DNA of 64,000 bases from Neodothiora populina (taxonomy: Eukaryota): the NCBI RefSeq assembly GCF_041146345.1, contig NW_027191407.1:1-64000 (forward strand), written 5' to 3'. Below the pieces are notes generated by a model. The model was not told the DNA's origin and did no database searches. It saw only the letters and a list, made by a program, of their open reading frames with translations. Below are positions 27,157-32,696 of the stretch, one piece after another (position 1 is the first letter of the stretch; each line of letters begins with the position of its first letter). The position numbers were made by a program, and so were the translations under genes.

Positions 27157-28270
27157 TCAATTGGCGTCTCCATTCCTAGACCGGGAGCTGTGGTCGACGT
27201 TGTTGTGCATACCTACAAAACCCGTCCCCTGTTTTCCTATATTGACGTTTCCGATCTTTTGCTTGACGTCTGACGATTGCTCGACGTTACTCATGCCGAC
27301 CGCGCCATACCCCAGAGTGTCGATGGTGACGTCTCCGATGTCTTGCCCTGTCCGTGTAGCTACCGATATCTTCGAAACATACTCGCTGACGTTCTCGCAC
27401 TGTTTCAAGGCCAAGCGACCGCGAGAAACATTCCGAAGCTCGTCATCGAGCGTTGTGATCTTCTCGATATCTTCTGACCGGTCCATATCCAGTCTGAGGT
27501 CTTTCTCTCTTACGACTAGACCGGTCAGCTGGGTTTTGAGCTCGGCGAGCAGTCCTGTCGACCTCTCCTCTTGCGTTAGCAGCGCGGTGTTTATCTGATC
27601 TGTTGTCTTCATGGTCTCGTATTGCGCTTGCCTAGATACGTACGTCAGCACGCTACAAACAAGTAGATGGCAATCGCGTCCGAAGCAGCATCACGGAGCT
27701 TCAGCGAGGACTGCAGTAGCATGACCTCGGCTGTTGACGAAATGCGGCATACGCTGGAGGCTGCGAGGTAAAGTCTCAAACACCATAGCCGGAAGGAATG
27801 AGTTTTCGCTTCCCGCACCAGGAAAAACAAATGTTTTTGACTCACAGAGTACATGAACCTAAGGCCAGCAAGATTGTTTGCTTACAGCTGGACAATTGAG
27901 TAGCCAGCAGAGCTAATTCCTTGTCGTGCCACGCGATGTTGACACTATCCCGCATTGAAAGCTTATTCCCGGGCATTGAACTCCTTGTCCACTTGCATAG
28001 AGAAGAGTGGAATGTTTTGCAAGCACTGTCCATGGTCTTTAGAGCCGCGGCAAGTTTCGACTTCTCAATGAGTTGTGTCCAGGCCGCTGTCTCAGAGGCT
28101 CTTACTAATGCATCTTCAAGTGATTGAAGCACAGCTTGCACATTCCGCAATTCGTCTCTCACTCGCTGGACAGCCGTGGGTGCGTCAATGATGTTGTTGA
28201 TGAAACCGACTAATACGTGGATACTGTGAGCAGCACTGGCCACGATACCGAAAGCGCTTGCGGGATCCAT
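27157..28270 (-). CDS. HeLo-like/SesA-type N-terminal helical domain protein with a C-terminal two-repeat putative amyloid motif (299 aa; exons 28270-27846, 27631-27157)
   Basis: MDPASAFGIVASAA..I...I.DAP..V..VRDEL is typical of fungal NLR-associated N-terminal helical domains. The GTGAGT..GCTGAC..TAG intron keeps frame. C-terminal repeats QDIGDVTIDTLGYGAVGM and QKIGNVNIGKQGTGFVGM. Confidence 0.82.
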
Positions 28271-28728
28271 GTCTGTCTGCCTTCACCGGCCTAGGAATGG
28301 AGGGTGTGCAGGGAGGATTTTCAGAGAAAACGTCTCCAGCGACTGCCACAAGTAAGCAGACTGGGACGTCGCGATGTGCAGATACCGCTGGCTTTTGGCG
28401 CAGGGCTACTCATTATCTTGTAATGCACGAAAAGCGGGTCCAATCTTCAGACCTATAGATGGAGAAGGGAATGTCCTCTCGGCGATAGTGCAGCTCTATG
28501 GTGCCATTGGCCCATCGAAGCCTTGTTATCGCTCGAGGCGGGCCAGTCAGTCGCATAAGCGCCGAGGCTTGCATTGTCGTGCCCCAAGGAGGCTCATCTT
28601 AGCTCAGAGGGTCACAAGACAACTCCAGCCACTACATGTAGGATGCTGCACACTCCGTCGCTCCGTTGATAAGCCCCTCAATCGCTCGCACACCTGAGCC
28701 CGATAGTGAAGGTGATGAGATTGATCGT

Positions 28729-31700
28729 ATGAACAAGACAAGCACAATGTCATTCACTGGAGTCCCGCGAGCCATTCAACAGGACATAGGAAATGTTTCG
28801 GTCGGAGACCACTCGTTCGTTCATGTCGGGATCACTAGTTCCGACAATAGCAGAAGTATGTCACCTGTTTGAAGTCTTCCTACCACTGCTCAAACTCGAG
28901 CGTGCATTGAAATCCTGAGATCGGTGTGTTAGCTAACGTGAGTATTGGTACGTAGATGAAAAGGAGAAAAACCGCCGTTGTCTTGCAGCCCTGAGACGGA
29001 CGGACCCACGAGAAGACAAGAGTCGGATCGAGGGAGGCAAGGACCGACTTCTCAATGGCTTATGTGATTGGGTTTTCGAAGATCCGGAGTTTCGTGGCTG
29101 GTGGGATGCCGTCGTCTCGCGCCTCCTCTGGATCAACGGCGACCCCGGGAAAGGTAAAACAATGATAGCTATCGCCGCCATTACTGAGGTCGAAAGAAGA
29201 CTGCAAGCTGGTCCGGAAGCAGGGATACTTGCGTTCTTCTTCTTCCAGAAAACAATACCGGAACTCAACTCGGCAGTGTCGGCTCTTAGAGGAGTGATCT
29301 ATCTCCTTCTCGAGAAGAGGCCGGCACTGATCAAGCACTTACGGAAGAGATATGACCACGCGGAGGACAGCATGTTCCAAGGACACAATGTTATGTACGC
29401 TCTTTGGGCTGTTCTTACTGATATCATTGAAGACGGTACCGATCTCACGACGTATATTGTACTAGACGCGCTAGACGAGTGTATCGAGCAGCAGGAGGAA
29501 CTTTTGTCTCTGATTGTCGAGTCGGAGATGCGAATAGGATCGAGGGTGAAGTGGCTACTAACCAGCCGTAACGAGCCTTCCATCAAGGAGAGACTACAGT
29601 GCCATGATAACTGCTCCAACACGAGTCTGGAAGTGAACGCTCAGAGAGTCAAGAAAGCAGTCGACCAGTACATTGCCGTTAAGGTGGCAGATCTGGCTAG
29701 AGACAAGAGGTATCAGGAAGGCCTCCGACGCGAAGTCGGGACGTATTTGATCGACAAGGCTGAGGGCACCTTTCTGTGGGTAGCCCTCGTGTGCAGGGAG
29801 CTTCGAAAGATTAACGGCACAAGACACACGATGCGCGTTCTACGCAAATTCCCCGCAAGCCTCGAGGGCCTTTATGAACGGATGATGCAGCAGATTGAAG
29901 GGAATGAGGTCAAGGAGGACGTTCTCGATTGTACGGCAATTCTCTGCTTCGTAACTGCGGCCCTCCGCCCAGTGACCATCTCCGAGATAGGCTACTTAGC
30001 CAACGTCAGTCATGGTACAGCCAACGCTCCACAGTCGGTAGGAGAATTGGTGGGCCTTTGCGGATCTTTCCTCTTCATTAAGGACGACTACATCTACTTC
30101 ATTCACCAGTCAGCGAAGGACTACTTCACGAGCGGTAGTGGCAAAAGACTGCTAACGTCTGGCCTCACTAAAGAGCATCGGCGCATCTTTCAGCGGTCGC
30201 ATACGCTTATGTCGAACATACTGCGCCGAGACATATGCAGGCTCCAAGCGCCGGGTACATTGATCGAGGAAGCCGCCAAACACGTCGACAAGATACCCGG
30301 CGAAATTCTTTACTCTTGTCTGTACTGGATCGAGCACGCTCTTCAAGTTCTCTCCGTATACAAGGATGATGCGAACATCATGCGCAATATCAAGAGTCTT
30401 TTCGAGTCCCACCTGTTGCACTGGCTAGAGGTGGTGTCACTAATGGGAAAGATGTCAGAGTCTGTAGCTATGGCTGTAGAGTTGAGTAGATGCCTTGCTG
30501 TGAGTGCCACTTCGGACTTTTTATCATGACCAGTGTCTGACTCAGCCCTATCAGGAGAGTGATGTTGCAATTCTACTTCAGGAAACAACACGTTTCATGT
30601 TACAGAATAGATACAGGATCGAGATCACCCCTCTGCAGGTGTACGAGTCCGCACTTGTGTTTAGTCCGGGAAAGAGTATCATCAGGTCATTTTGTGAAGA
30701 CGAGTATCCGAAGTGGATTAAGCTGATCACGGGTGTCGAAGAGAATTGGTCATCTTGTCGACAGACACTCGAAGGGCATTCAAGCTGGGTCAGCGCAGTG
30801 GCCTTCTCGCCAGACGGCAAGCTCGTAGCGTCTGCATCCAACGACCGCACAATCAGGCTCTGGGATGCAGCGACAGGAGCAGCGCGTAGCACACTCGAGG
30901 GCCATTCAAACTGGGTCAACGCAGTGGCCTTCTCGCCAGACAGCAAGCTCGTAGCGTCTGCATCTGGCGACTGCACGGTCAGGCTCTGGGATGCAGCGAC
31001 AGGGGCAGCGCGTAAGACACTCAAGGGTCATTCAAACATCGTCCGCGCAGTGGCCTTCTCGCCAGACGGCAAGCTCGTAGCGTCTGCATCTGGCGACCGC
31101 ACGGTCAGGCTCTGGGATGCAGCGACAGGGGCAGCGCGTAGCACACTCGAGGGCCATTCAAACTGGGTCAACGCAGTGGCCTTCTCGCCAGACAGCAAGC
31201 TCGTAGCGTCTGCATCCAACGACCGCACAATCAGGCTCTGGGATGCAGCGACAGGGGTAGCGCGTAGCACACTCGAGGGCCATTCAAACTGGGTCAACGC
31301 AGTGGCCTTCTCGCCAGACGGCAAGCTCGTAGCGTCTGCATCTGACGACCGCACAATCAGGCTCTGGGATGCAGCGACAGGGGCAGCGCGTAAGACACTC
31401 AAGGGTCATTCAAACATCGTCCGCGCAGTGGCCTTCTCGCCAGACAGCAAGCTCGTAGCGTCTGCATCTGGCGACTGCACGGTCAGGCTCTGGGATGCAG
31501 CGACAGGGGCAGCGCGTAAGACACTCAAGGGTCATTCAAACATCGTCCGCGCAGTGGCCTTCTCGCCAGACGGCAAGCTCGTAGCGTCTGCATCTGGCGA
31601 CCGCACAATCAGGCTCTGGGATGCAGCGACAGGGGCAGCGCGTAGCACACTCGAGGGCCATTCAAACTGGGTCAACGCAGTGGCCTTCTCGCCAGACAGC

Positions 31701-32696
31701 AAGCTCGTAGCGTCTGCATCCAACGACCGCACAATCAGGCTCTGGGATGCAGCGACAGGGGTAGCGCGTAGCACACTCGAGGGCCATTCAAACTGGGTCA
31801 ACGCAGTGGCCTTCTCGCCAGACGGCAAGCTCGTAGCGTCTGCATCTGACGACCGCACAATCAGGCTCTGGGATGCAGCGACAGGGGTAGCGCGTAGCAC
31901 ACTCGAGGGCCATTCAAACTGGGTCAACGCAGTGGCCTTCTCGCCAGACGGCAAGCTCGTAGCGTCTGCATCTGACGACCGCACAATCAGGCTCTGGGAT
32001 GCAGCGACAGGGGCAGCGCGTAAGACACTCAAGGGTCATTCAAACATCGTCCGCGCAGTGGCCTTCTCGCCAGACAGCAAGCTCGTAGCGTCTGCATCTG
32101 GCGACTGCACGGTCAGGCTCTGGGATGCAGCGACAGGGGCAGCGCGTAAGACACTCAAGGGTCATTCAAACATCGTCCGCGCAGTGGCCTTCTCGCCAGA
32201 CGGCAAGCTCGTAGCGTCTGCATCTGGCGACCGCACAATCAGGCTCTGGGATGCAGCGACAGGGGCAGCGCGTAGCACACTCGAGGGCCATTCAAACTGG
32301 GTCAACGCAGTGGCCTTCTCGCCAGACGGCAAGCTAGTAGCGTCTGGATCTAGCGACTGCACGGTCAGGCTCTGGGATGCAGCGACAGGAGCAGCTCTAA
32401 CTACAATCAAAGTGCAAGGCTTTATCAACGAACTTTCGTTTGTAGCTGGAGGTTTACAATCCAATCTAGGCTTCCATCCACTATCCCTAGAAGCCGCCAC
32501 AACCACCTTCTGGCCATCTACTGCATCTACATCACTTTTGATTAGAGAGGAGTGGGTATACTGCGGCGAGAAACGACTTCTCTGGCTCCCGCCTGACTGC
32601 CGGCCACTTTCATCAGCATTCTATGGCAACACCTTTGTGATGGGCTTTGTTGATGGCCGAGTCATGCTTATGATTATCGACGTCCAAGCTGTCTAA
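28729..32696 (+). CDS. NLR, NACHT-WD40 (HET-E/NWD-like), with an N-terminal putative amyloid motif (~1270 aa; exons 28729-28855, 28956-30499, 30555-32696; alternative ATG 28747)
   Basis: TDPREDK.RIE; Walker A LLWINGDPGKGKT; Walker B YIVLDALDEC; KAEGTFLWVALV; FIHQSAKDY; 13 WD40 repeats. Both introns are canonical and in frame. Confidence 0.93.
30765..32402 (+). repeat. 13 near-identical 126-bp WD40-coding tandem repeats
   Basis: TL[EK]GHS[NS][WI]V[NRS]AVAFSPD[GS]KLVAS[AG]S[NGDS]D[RC]T[IV]RLWDAATG repeated 13 times. Confidence 0.97.

What the first reader, a model, noticed from the sequence alone, without database searches (positions are those of the whole stretch)
27157..32696. Head-to-head NLR and HeLo-like effector sharing a putative amyloid signalling motif
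Seen: a NACHT-WD40 NLR lacks an N-terminal effector domain and instead begins with QDIGNVSVGDHSFVHVGI (28780-28833). The divergently transcribed neighbour (ATGs 458 bp apart) has a HeLo-like N-terminus and ends with two matching pseudo-repeats, QDIGDVTIDTLGYGAVGM (27345-27292) and QKIGNVNIGKQGTGFVGM (27261-27208). Established: one repeat on the NLR, two on the effector and adjacent genes is the architecture of Podospora NWD2/HET-S, where the NLR templates the beta-solenoid amyloid fold and activates a membrane-disrupting domain. Inference: this is an intact amyloid-signalling cell-death/immune module. Neither gene model is visible in the ORF track without splicing.
Basis: partly seen in the sequence, partly recalled or inferred. 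Interest (0 to 1): 0.93.

Follow-up and report, generated by a model that had tools for sequence, protein, structure and literature searches.

The report
NLR and HeLo-like amyloid signalling pair
Two neighbouring fungal genes, an immune-type receptor and a likely membrane-damaging protein, share a short motif of the kind known to pass a death signal by amyloid templating; it is a good new example of a known system, not a new kind.

Summary
A NACHT-WD40 NLR (+ strand, 3 exons, about 1270 aa) has no N-terminal effector domain. Its 127-nt first exon carries one 21-residue motif, R0. The divergent neighbour (299 aa, 2 exons) has a PF17111 HeLo-like domain (E 6e-15) and ends in two copies of the motif, R1 and R2, 7 residues apart. 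A profile of 24 R1/R2 repeats from 12 homologues, window excluded, finds R0 as the only other match in all six frames of the window (E 2.8e-4; next 9.8; 0 of 5000 shuffles reach it). An orthologous metagenome contig keeps the same divergent pair, the splice signals and an identical R0 core (omega 0.08). The motif fits the published HRAM (HET-s-related) pattern: hydrophobic residues at 5/8/10/18, G19, Q3 and a D4/K4 charge pair. It departs at positions 15 and 16 and matches no Pfam HET-s profile. The NLR is 100% identical to a Neodothiora populina protein whose public model starts inside the P-loop and lacks R0. Effector relatives were found only in Aureobasidium and unnamed assemblies. Verdict: a real NWD2/HET-S-type module, a new member (perhaps a new subfamily) of a known kind. 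Templating and cell death are inferred, not shown. No RNA evidence was available.

The parts
28729..28855 (+). NLR exon 1 (42 codons + 1 base); a second in-frame ATG lies at 28747
   Evidence: Translation. It is the most conserved feature against the orthologue L001, at 85.8% nt identity. Omega is 0.21 in this frame, against 0.45 and 1.66 with stops in the other two frames. Both ATGs are conserved in L001.
28774..28836 (+). R0: the single 21-residue HRAM-like motif IQQDIGNVSVGDHSFVHVGIT (core 28780-28833)
   Evidence: HMM of effector repeats gives E 2.8e-4, the only match in the window besides the effector. 0 of 5000 shuffles reach its score. Residues 17-34 of the exon-1 peptide are identical in L001 and omega is 0.08.
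28856..28955 (+). NLR intron 1 (100 nt, GTATGT ... GCTAAC ... TAG)
   Evidence: Read from the sequence. Donor, branch site and acceptor are conserved in L001. Splicing keeps the frame: A + AT gives Asn.
28956..30499 (+). NLR exon 2: pre-NACHT region, NACHT with Walker A GDPGKGKT and Walker B IVLDALDEC, and the winged-helix region
   Evidence: Pfam NPHP3_N E 2.4e-34 and NACHT E 2e-8. 100% identical to the NCBI protein AAFC00_007134 of Neodothiora populina over 87% of the query.
30500..30554 (+). NLR intron 2 (55 nt, GTGAGT ... CTGAC ... CAG)
   Evidence: Read from the sequence. The intron has the same length in L001, with GT, branch site and AG kept.
30555..32696 (+). NLR exon 3 with the WD40 array and the stop codon
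   Evidence: Pfam WD40, 13 stretches, E 6e-187.
30765..32395 (+). Tandem array of 12.9 x 126 nt (42-aa WD40 units), 92% matches
   Evidence: TRF. Of the 13 units, 12 of 42 positions vary: 3, 7, 8, 10, 18, 24, 26, 28, 30, 39, 41, 42.
28271..28728 (.). 458-nt shared intergenic region between the two divergent start codons
   Evidence: 67.7% identity to L001. A role as a promoter is inferred.
27846..28270 (-). Effector exon 1: HeLo-like (PF17111) domain, starting MDPASAFGIVASAAHSIHVLVGF
   Evidence: Pfam PF17111 E 6.3e-15. PF17111 = Helo_like_N according to PMC9815663. Omega is 0.18 against L001. The AF2 model has pLDDT 80.8 and is a helical bundle.
27632..27845 (-). Effector intron (214 nt, GTGAGT ... 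GCTGAC ... TAG)
   Evidence: Identity to L001 falls to about 52% here, against 78% in the exons (the boundaries used there were up to 9 nt off). Splice signals are conserved in L001. The junction agrees with the annotated Aureobasidium proteins.
27157..27631 (-). Effector exon 2: helical linker, R1, 7-residue loop, R2, 15-residue tail and stop
   Evidence: 12 related protein clusters conserve the double motif.
27289..27351 (-). R1: TGQDIGDVTIDTLGYGAVGMS
   Evidence: HMM domain E 2.7e-12. Omega for the R1-R2 block is 0.11.
27205..27267 (-). R2: VKQKIGNVNIGKQGTGFVGMH
   Evidence: HMM domain E 7.4e-11. K4 faces D4 of R1; the acid/base pair occurs in 9 of 12 homologues.

Best explanation
This is a two-gene NLR/effector cell-death module of the NWD2/HET-S (HRAM) type, in a Dothideales fungus; the NLR sequence is identical to one from Neodothiora populina.

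Shown here:
- The NLR has an intact NACHT and 13 near-identical WD40 repeats, no effector domain, and one 21-residue motif (R0) near its N-terminus.
- The divergent neighbour is a 299-aa HeLo-like protein that ends in two copies of the motif (R1, R2).
- All three copies fit the beta-solenoid pattern published for HET-s-related motifs.
- Both genes and the motifs are under purifying selection in an orthologous locus.

Inferred by analogy with NWD2/HET-S and FNT1/HELLF:
- A ligand bound by the variable WD40 surface makes the NLR oligomerise.
- Clustered R0 segments then fold into an amyloid rung.
- That rung templates the unfolded R1-R2 tail of the effector into a two-rung beta-solenoid.
For: - Gene models and domains.
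- Pfam: PF17111 E 6.3e-15 on effector exon 1; NPHP3_N/NACHT and 13 WD40 stretches on the NLR.
- Motif match beyond chance: HMM from 12 homologues gives E 2.8e-4 for R0, against 9.8 for the next ORF in the window. 0 of 5000 shuffles reach the score, and 0 of 119 related NLRs score above 2.7 bits.
- HRAM rules from PMC4518210. R0 has hydrophobic residues at 5, 8, 10, 16 and 18 and G at 19. R1 and R2 have them at 5, 8, 10 and 18 plus G19. Q at position 3 marks the HRAM2/5 supergroup. The loop is 7 residues (published range 6-18). The effector is under 310 aa.
- Across the family: hydrophobic at position 5 in 22/24, position 8 in 24/24, position 10 in 23/24, position 18 in 24/24; G19 in 22/24. Acidic R1-4 faces basic R2-4 in 9 of 12 pairs. 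This fits in-register stacking.
- R0 carries S and H where R1 and R2 carry charges, as the paper reports for NLR-side motifs.
- Orthologue L001: same divergent arrangement at 77.8% nt identity; R0 core identical; splice signals kept.
- Omega against L001: 0.08 (R0 core), 0.11 (R1-R2), 0.18 (HeLo-like exon), 0.17-0.21 (NACHT).
- The AF2 model of a full-length homologue leaves residues 253-310, which include the motif region, at pLDDT below 50. That is what a natively unfolded prion-forming tail would give.
- The exon-1 model is a helical bundle. Its best matches include Rx-CC (Z 11.5-11.9), MLKL (Z about 10) and NRG1 CC-R (Z 9.6-10.1).
- Mechanism of the paradigm: PMC12881547 passages, PMC3321046 passages, bioRxiv 10.1101/2020.07.06.188508 passages.
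Against: - No experiment or RNA data bear on this locus. Splicing, expression, amyloid formation, seeding and toxicity are all untested.
- R1 and R2 have G, not a hydrophobic residue, at position 16 (hydrophobic in 10/24 across the family). The R/K preferred at position 15 in all published HRAMs is absent (1/24).
- No Pfam HET-s, sigma or PP profile matched at E <= 1. No solved HET-s or HELLF chain matched a family profile at E <= 10.
- The tail after R2 lacks the aromatic/diglycine segment often seen in HRAM proteins.
- Linkage is conserved in only 1 of the 2 related loci I could fetch. L002, which is like Aureobasidium pullulans, has a 5'-truncated effector directly behind a histidine-kinase gene. 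It has no NLR within 7 kb upstream or 1.3 kb downstream.
- The orthologue L001 has a 7-nt deletion in its NACHT exon, which is either a frameshift or an assembly error.
- A search with the 43-aa exon-1 peptide found no other protein carrying it.
- Fold matches to cell-death bundles are no better than those to unrelated four-helix bundles such as Cbl TKB and IncA.
Confidence: 0.8

Rival explanations
1. [quoted passage not shown]
For: - No Pfam HET-s profile hit and no hit to solved HET-s or HELLF chains.
- Position 16 is G and position 15 is not basic.
- There is a strongly conserved extension after G19 ([MI][SH]N, with N22 in 21/24) and a conserved VDH tail, neither of which the text I read describes for HRAMs.
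Against: - The two-repeat-plus-one layout is said to distinguish HET-s-type motifs from PP and sigma.
- The hydrophobic pattern, G19 and a loop length within 6-18 fit.
- The published work shows the fold tolerates below 5-17% identity.
Confidence: 0.1
2. The shared motif is a leftover of common ancestry or gene conversion between neighbours, or a non-amyloid docking peptide. The two genes do not signal by templating.
For: No functional data exist. The motif is short. Neighbouring genes can exchange sequence.
Against: - R0 and R1-R2 are the most constrained parts of their exons (omega 0.08 and 0.11), with synonymous changes accumulating.
- The motif is kept in relatives down to 27% identity.
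- The R1/R2 charge pairing suggests stacking.
- R0 differs from R1 and R2 in 10-11 of the 18 core residues, which argues against recent conversion.
Confidence: 0.05
3. The module is a decaying or silent relic in this lineage: structurally intact in this genome but no longer used.
For: - The orthologous NLR in L001 carries a 7-nt deletion.
- Many Aureobasidium pullulans records hold only a 5'-truncated effector.
- A Tc1/mariner-like element sits 60 nt past the NLR stop.
- No RNA holder was found, which is not evidence either way.
Against: - Both genes are free of stops and frameshifts here, with intact Walker A and B motifs.
- Omega is 0.1-0.2 throughout, including downstream of the L001 deletion at 0.21.
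Confidence: 0.05

Closest known systems
Podospora anserina NWD2 / HET-S (HRAM1), the paradigm of NLR-to-effector amyloid templating
   Same: - Adjacent, divergently transcribed genes.
- A NACHT-WD40 NLR without an effector domain and with a single N-terminal R0.
- An effector with two 21-residue pseudo-repeats at its C-terminus.
- The same hydrophobic pattern and G19.
   Different: - The effector domain is HeLo-like (PF17111), not HeLo (PF14479 gave no hit).
- Position 3 is Q, not N.
- The loop is 7 residues, against 15 in HET-s.
- No match to Pfam PF11558.
- The host is a Dothideomycete, not a Sordariomycete.
Podospora anserina FNT1 / HELLF (HRAM5)
   Same: - A HeLo-like effector with two HRAM repeats next to an NLR carrying R0.
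- The repeat starts with Q-x-hydrophobic-G: here QxIG, against the HRAM5 hallmark QxFG.
   Different: - No QG(QI) sub-motif at positions 16-18 of that paper's numbering; ours has G-[AF]-V there.
- I recall from the gene name that the FNT1 NLR is NB-ARC/TPR type, not NACHT/WD40. No call showed this.
HRAM2 subfamily (example given in PMC5485727: Penicillium roqueforti W6Q0M1 / W6PZN6)
   Same: Q at position 3 without Q at positions 16 or 18. This is the only textual mark of HRAM2 that I could read.
   Different: Not tested. The logos are figures, which are not held, and the sequence file is an unreadable supplement. Ours lacks the basic residue at position 15 that is said to be preferred in all HRAMs.

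Membership tests
HRAM (HET-s-related amyloid motif) effector, as defined in PMC4518210 | HeLo, HeLo-like or SesA domain protein of at most 310 aa | tested here: met
   PF17111 E 6.3e-15, 55.6 bits against a cut-off of 27.2. The spliced model is 299 aa.
HRAM effector | Two imperfect repeats of a 21-residue motif in the last 80 residues, joined by a loop of 6-18 residues | tested here: met
   R1 and R2 start 28 residues apart, so the loop is 7 residues. Both lie within the last 65 residues.
HRAM motif | Hydrophobic residues at positions 5, 8, 10 and 18, and glycine at 19 | tested here: met
   R0, R1 and R2 all comply. Across 24 family repeats the counts are 22, 24, 23 and 24 hydrophobic, and 22 with G19.
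HRAM motif | Hydrophobic residue at position 16 | tested here: not met
   R0 has V, but R1 and R2 have G. Across the family 10 of 24 are hydrophobic.
HRAM motif | Preference for R/K at position 15 | tested here: not met
   The residues are F (R0), Y (R1) and T (R2). Across the family 1 of 24 is basic.
HRAM motif | Charge complementarity between R1 and R2 at outward-facing positions (4, 6, 7, 11-13) | tested here: met
   D4 faces K4 in the window. Acidic faces basic at position 4 in 9 of 12 homologues. At position 7, R1 has K in 6/12 and R2 has D in 9/12, counted per column and not per pair.
HRAM pair | [quoted passage not shown] | tested here: met
   R0 lies at residues 16-36 of the NLR, 458 nt from the effector start. 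HMM E 2.8e-4. The arrangement is conserved in L001.
HRAM1, canonical HET-s prion-forming domain | Match to Pfam PF11558 (HET-s_218-289) | tested here: not met
   No hit at E <= 1 for the effector exon 2 or the NLR exon 1. The paper says only 38 of 155 HRAM proteins match this profile.
HRAM | Forms a beta-solenoid amyloid or prion and is seeded by R0 | not testable with these tools
   This needs in vivo or in vitro work. The complex-prediction job could not be queued.
HeLo-like / MLKL-type four-helix-bundle execution domain | Four-helix bundle similar to MLKL, CC or RPW8 domains | tested here: inconclusive
   Model pLDDT is 80.8. Matches are Rx-CC Z 11.5 (rmsd 2.3, 103 aligned), MLKL Z 10.1 (rmsd 2.3, 100 aligned) and NRG1 CC-R Z 9.6. 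Cbl TKB and IncA score the same, and Z below 13 is common for helical bundles. Foldseek gave nothing at E <= 0.001.
NWD-type fungal NLR | NACHT NTPase with intact Walker A/B followed by highly similar WD40 repeats, and no N-terminal effector domain | tested here: met
   Pfam. GDPGKGKT and IVLDALDEC are present. 12.9 units of 126 nt at 92% matches. Only 42 codons precede the pre-NACHT region, and stops lie upstream.

The most novel reading that the evidence does not exclude
The motif defines a separate, Dothideales-restricted HRAM subfamily with its own seeding specificity: QxIG start, G at position 16, no basic residue at 15, a conserved [SH]N after G19, a VDH tail and a short 7-residue loop. 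Its Aureobasidium relatives include widespread natural HeLo-less versions that keep only the linker and an intact R1-R2 tail. Such a tail-only protein could propagate as a harmless prion or act as a decoy, much as het-s relates to het-S.
Probability: 0.15. Interest if true: 0.6.

Novelty: new member of a known kind. Interest (0 to 1): 0.35.

Why it matters
It adds a well-supported NLR/HeLo-like amyloid-signalling pair from Dothideales, a group not mentioned in the papers I read. The terms Dothideomycetes and Aureobasidium had 0 occurrences in the texts searched. No held paper combines Aureobasidium, HeLo-like and amyloid.

It also shows why such pairs are under-counted. The public gene model of this NLR starts inside the P-loop and drops the small motif-bearing exon. 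Protein-based surveys therefore cannot see it.

The motif's departures from the HRAM consensus make it a useful natural test case for the sequence limits of the HET-s fold and for cross-seeding barriers. It does not change the understanding of the mechanism.

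Tried and rejected
- Whole-genome search: no genome is held for this window.
- RNA evidence: no RNA holder was listed. The single run X1 (small share, probably DNA) gave two short contigs, 27507-27658 and 27976-28211. They are colinear with the genome and tell nothing about splicing.
- Search for other proteins carrying R0, using the 43-aa exon-1 peptide with lengths 'longer': 3 candidates, none scored. 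The first attempt failed on an E-value limit.
- N-termini of the 120 best NACHT relatives: a loose regular expression hit 10. Nine were LGD[VI]V[IV] stretches and one was CLGDLRV. I recognise these as PNP_UDP and pre-NACHT sequence, and none is R0-like.
- Fold search with the full-length homologue model (pLDDT 62): only long-helix noise.
- ESM Atlas look-up of the tail: no usable hit.
- Profile search of solved structures: only coiled-coil noise, with no HET-s or HELLF chain.
- Earlier-findings look-ups: nothing relevant.
- HRAM paper supplements (sequence list, logos): not readable, so the subfamily assignment stays open.
- Complex prediction of R0 with the R1-R2 tail: never accepted because the queue was full. 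No result exists.
- Of the 21 phmmer hits, 9 are long repetitive proteins. I read 3 of them (P0015, P0020, P0022). They match through AVGLSNVDNTSD-type repeats, which I recognise as tail-fibre-like. I set all 9 aside as chance likeness to GAVGMSNVEQSSD.
- An out-of-frame omega for effector exon 1 (0.87) was my error and was corrected to 0.18.
- The fused A. pullulans model P0167 (histidine kinase + R1-R2) splices out of the middle of its receiver domain, while the kinase ORF in L002 runs on to its own stop. I treat it as an annotation artefact.

Full report
**Observation.**
- On the + strand an ORF piece opens with MNKTSTMSFTGVPRAIQQDIGNVSVGDHSFVHVGITSSDNSR (28729-28854). Its core QDIGNVSVGDHSFVHVGI lies at 28780-28833.
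- On the - strand the neighbour ends with ...TRTGQDIGDVTIDTLGYGAVGMSNVEQSSDVKQKIGNVNIGKQGTGFVGMHNNVDHSSRSRNGDAN. The two repeats lie at 27345-27292 and 27261-27208.
- 458 bases separate the two start codons.

**Gene models.** Neither gene is a single ORF.
- NLR, three exons:
  - Exon 1 is 28729-28855.
  - A 100-nt intron follows, with GTATGT, a GCTAAC branch site and TAG. It keeps the frame.
  - Exon 2 is 28956-30499.
  - A 55-nt intron follows (GTGAGT..CTGAC..CAG).
  - Exon 3 is 30555-32696.
  - The product is about 1270 aa.
- Effector, two exons:
  - Exon 1 is 28270-27846.
  - A 214-nt intron follows (GTGAGT..GCTGAC..TAG).
  - Exon 2 is 27631-27157.
  - The product is 299 aa.
- Support is comparative, not transcriptomic:
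  - A metagenome contig (L001) is colinear with 27140-31370 at 77.8% nt identity.
  - Identity is 78-86% in the proposed exons, about 52% in the effector intron and 68% between the genes. NLR exon 1 is the best conserved piece, at 85.8%.
  - Donors, branch sites and acceptors are kept.
  - The effector exon junction (..GSCT-L-QAQYE..) matches annotated full-length Aureobasidium proteins.
- No RNA run was available.

**Domains.**
- Effector exon 1 matches PF17111 at E 6.3e-15. The current Pfam copy calls this family PigL_N. PMC9815663 names PF17111 Helo_like_N, the HeLo-like domain (passages).
- SesA is a weak hit (E 0.008). HeLo gave none.
- The NLR has NPHP3_N/NACHT, intact Walker A and B motifs and 13 WD40 stretches.
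- The WD40 array is 12.9 units of 126 nt at 92% matches. Variation is confined to 12 of 42 positions.
- Only 42 codons precede the pre-NACHT region. The frame upstream holds stops. The NLR therefore lacks an effector domain.

**Is the motif match more than chance?**
- BLASTP of the exon-1 peptide against the effector tail gives E 0.001 and 0.003.
- For an independent test I built an HMM from the 24 R1/R2 repeats of 12 homologous proteins, leaving the window out. I scanned all 1925 stop-to-stop pieces of the six frames of the window with it.
- The effector scores E 7e-23, the NLR exon-1 piece E 2.8e-4, and nothing else scores better than 9.8.
- None of 5000 shuffles of the peptide reaches its score. 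The best of 119 related NLRs scores 2.7 bits.

**Selection** (window against L001, Nei-Gojobori).

| Region | Omega |
|---|---|
| NLR exon 1 | 0.21 |
| R0 core (4.5 synonymous, 1.5 non-synonymous changes) | 0.08 |
| R1-R2 block | 0.11 |
| Helical linker | 0.43 |
| HeLo-like exon | 0.18 |
| NACHT | 0.17-0.21 |

The two wrong frames of exon 1 give 0.45 and 1.66, with stops. Residues 17-34 of the exon-1 peptide are identical in L001, while the flanks differ.

**Comparison with the known family.** I read parts 1-3 of 5 of PMC4518210. Its figures are not held and its supplements are unreadable.
- It defines HET-s-related motifs by several features:
  - two 21-residue repeats at the end of HeLo, HeLo-like or SesA proteins of at most 310 aa;
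  - a loop of 6-18 residues;
  - hydrophobic residues at 5, 8, 10, 16 and 18, G at 19 and a basic residue preferred at 15;
  - complementary charges between repeats;
  - often an adjacent NLR with one copy (98 of 155 cases) that is poorer in charges and richer in S and H.
- In that numbering the three copies read:
  - R0: IQQDIGNVSVGDHSFVHVGIT
  - R1: TGQDIGDVTIDTLGYGAVGMS
  - R2: VKQKIGNVNIGKQGTGFVGMH
- All fit at positions 5, 8, 10, 18 and 19. R0 also fits at 16, but R1 and R2 have G there. None has a basic residue at 15.
- D4 of R1 faces K4 of R2. This pairing occurs in 9 of 12 family members. Position 7 tends to K in R1 and D in R2.
- Q at position 3 places the motif in the Q3 supergroup (HRAM2 and HRAM5) of the paper. 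The HRAM5 hallmark QG(QI) is absent. HRAM2, or a separate subfamily, is therefore the best guess, and I could not test it.
- No Pfam HET-s, sigma or PP profile and no solved HET-s or HELLF chain is matched. That excludes canonical HRAM1 but not the superfamily. The paper says only 38 of 155 HRAM proteins match the Pfam profile.

**Structure.**
- AF2 on a full-length Aureobasidium homologue gives helices up to residue 243. Residues 253-310, which include the motif region, come out at pLDDT below 50. That is compatible with an unfolded prion-forming tail.
- AF2 on the window's exon 1 (pLDDT 80.8) gives a helical bundle.
- Its VIA matches include Rx-CC (Z 11.5-11.9), MLKL (about 10) and NRG1 CC-R (9.6-10.1).
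- Unrelated bundles score alike, and Foldseek found nothing significant. This is consistent with, but does not prove, the MLKL-like fold that PMC9815663 reports for HeLo-like domains.

**Distribution.**
- The NACHT exon is 100% identical to NCBI protein AAFC00_007134 of Neodothiora populina. The next relative is 47% identical.
- That public model begins MIAIAAITEV, inside the Walker A motif. It therefore lacks exon 1 and R0.
- The effector tail has 12 related clusters among 1.84 billion representatives.
- A word-based search with an Aureobasidium tail returned 21 proteins: 13 A. pullulans, 6 A. melanogenum and 2 unnamed. Fifteen of them carry PF17111.
- Of the two related loci I could fetch, L001 keeps the whole pair, though with a 7-nt deletion in its NACHT exon.
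- L002 holds only the last ~15 codons of the HeLo-like exon plus an intact second exon. It sits directly after a hybrid histidine-kinase gene, and no NLR is in reach.
- Linkage is therefore shown for close relatives only.

**Mechanism.**
- Shown here: the architecture, the motif pattern, the constraint on the sequences and the conserved pairing.
- Inferred from NWD2/HET-S and FNT1/HELLF (passages of PMC12881547, PMC3321046 and bioRxiv 10.1101/2020.07.06.188508), in order:
  1. Ligand-driven oligomerisation of the NLR.
  2. Cooperative folding of the clustered R0 segments.
  3. Templating of R1-R2 into a two-rung solenoid.
  4. Activation of the HeLo-like domain at the membrane.
- I put 0.8 on this reading.

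**Verdict.** The finding is real and correctly interpreted, but the kind is well known. It is a new member, possibly a new subfamily, from Dothideales, and public annotation misses it.

Noticed in passing
window 1-18732: The window starts inside the rDNA array. LSU lies at 1-1696 (cut), 6860-10214 and 15378-18732. SSU lies at 4552-6351 and 13070-14869. 5.8S lies at 6538-6691 and 15056-15209. The unit period is 8518 nt. The NLR/effector pair lies about 8.4 kb beyond the last LSU.
   Followed up: partly
window 32757-35804: A Tc1/mariner-like element starts 60 nt after the NLR stop. It has ~210-nt terminal inverted repeats (32757-32965 and 35596-35804) around a DDE_3/HTH_33 ORF at 34657-35691 on the - strand. 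Its GC is lower, about 0.45.
   Followed up: partly
window 28956-29155, against NCBI protein AAFC00_007134 (P0041): The public gene model of the NLR (1159 aa) starts at MIAIAAITEV inside the Walker A motif. It omits the R0 exon and the first 67 residues of exon 2.
   Followed up: yes
L001, opposite window 29767: The orthologous NLR has a 7-nt deletion in the GEGTFLWVAL region, which shifts the frame. The sequence downstream still evolves as coding (omega 0.21), so this is a recent lesion or a metagenome assembly error.
   Followed up: partly
L002 6950-7588 and proteins P0007, P0161, P0162, P0006: Many Aureobasidium pullulans records hold a 5'-truncated form of the effector. Only the last ~15 codons of the HeLo-like exon are left, then the intron, then an intact linker and R1-R2 tail that is 93-95% identical to the tail of the full-length form. 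It sits directly behind the stop of a hybrid histidine kinase (L002 5442-6908). Whether it is an allele or a paralogue of the 310-aa form is unknown.
   Followed up: partly
protein P0167 (456 aa, 65 member sequences): This annotated A. pullulans protein fuses HATPase_c and part of a receiver domain to the R1-R2 tail. The junction leaves the receiver domain halfway, while the kinase ORF in L002 runs on to its own stop. It is probably a merged gene model.
   Followed up: partly
proteins P0015, P0020, P0022 (hits): The stretch GAVGMSNVEQSSD between R1 and R2 resembles the repeated AVGLSNVDNTSD unit of long repetitive proteins, which I recognise as tail-fibre-like. I took this as chance likeness and read only 3 of the 9 such hits.
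   Followed up: no
window 30765-32402: The 13 WD40 units show a higher-order pattern. Four pairs of units are identical at the nucleotide level, giving 9 distinct units, and blocks recur at 630 nt. This suggests recent unequal exchange within the array.
   Followed up: no
window 23869-24549, 24991-25923 and 36354-47288: The flanks hold ordinary housekeeping genes: CHD5/Get1-like, an Rtt106-like histone chaperone, a Myb protein, a Pre-SET protein, Rad10/Ercc1 and RNase P p30. No second NLR or HeLo-type gene lies in the window.
   Followed up: partly
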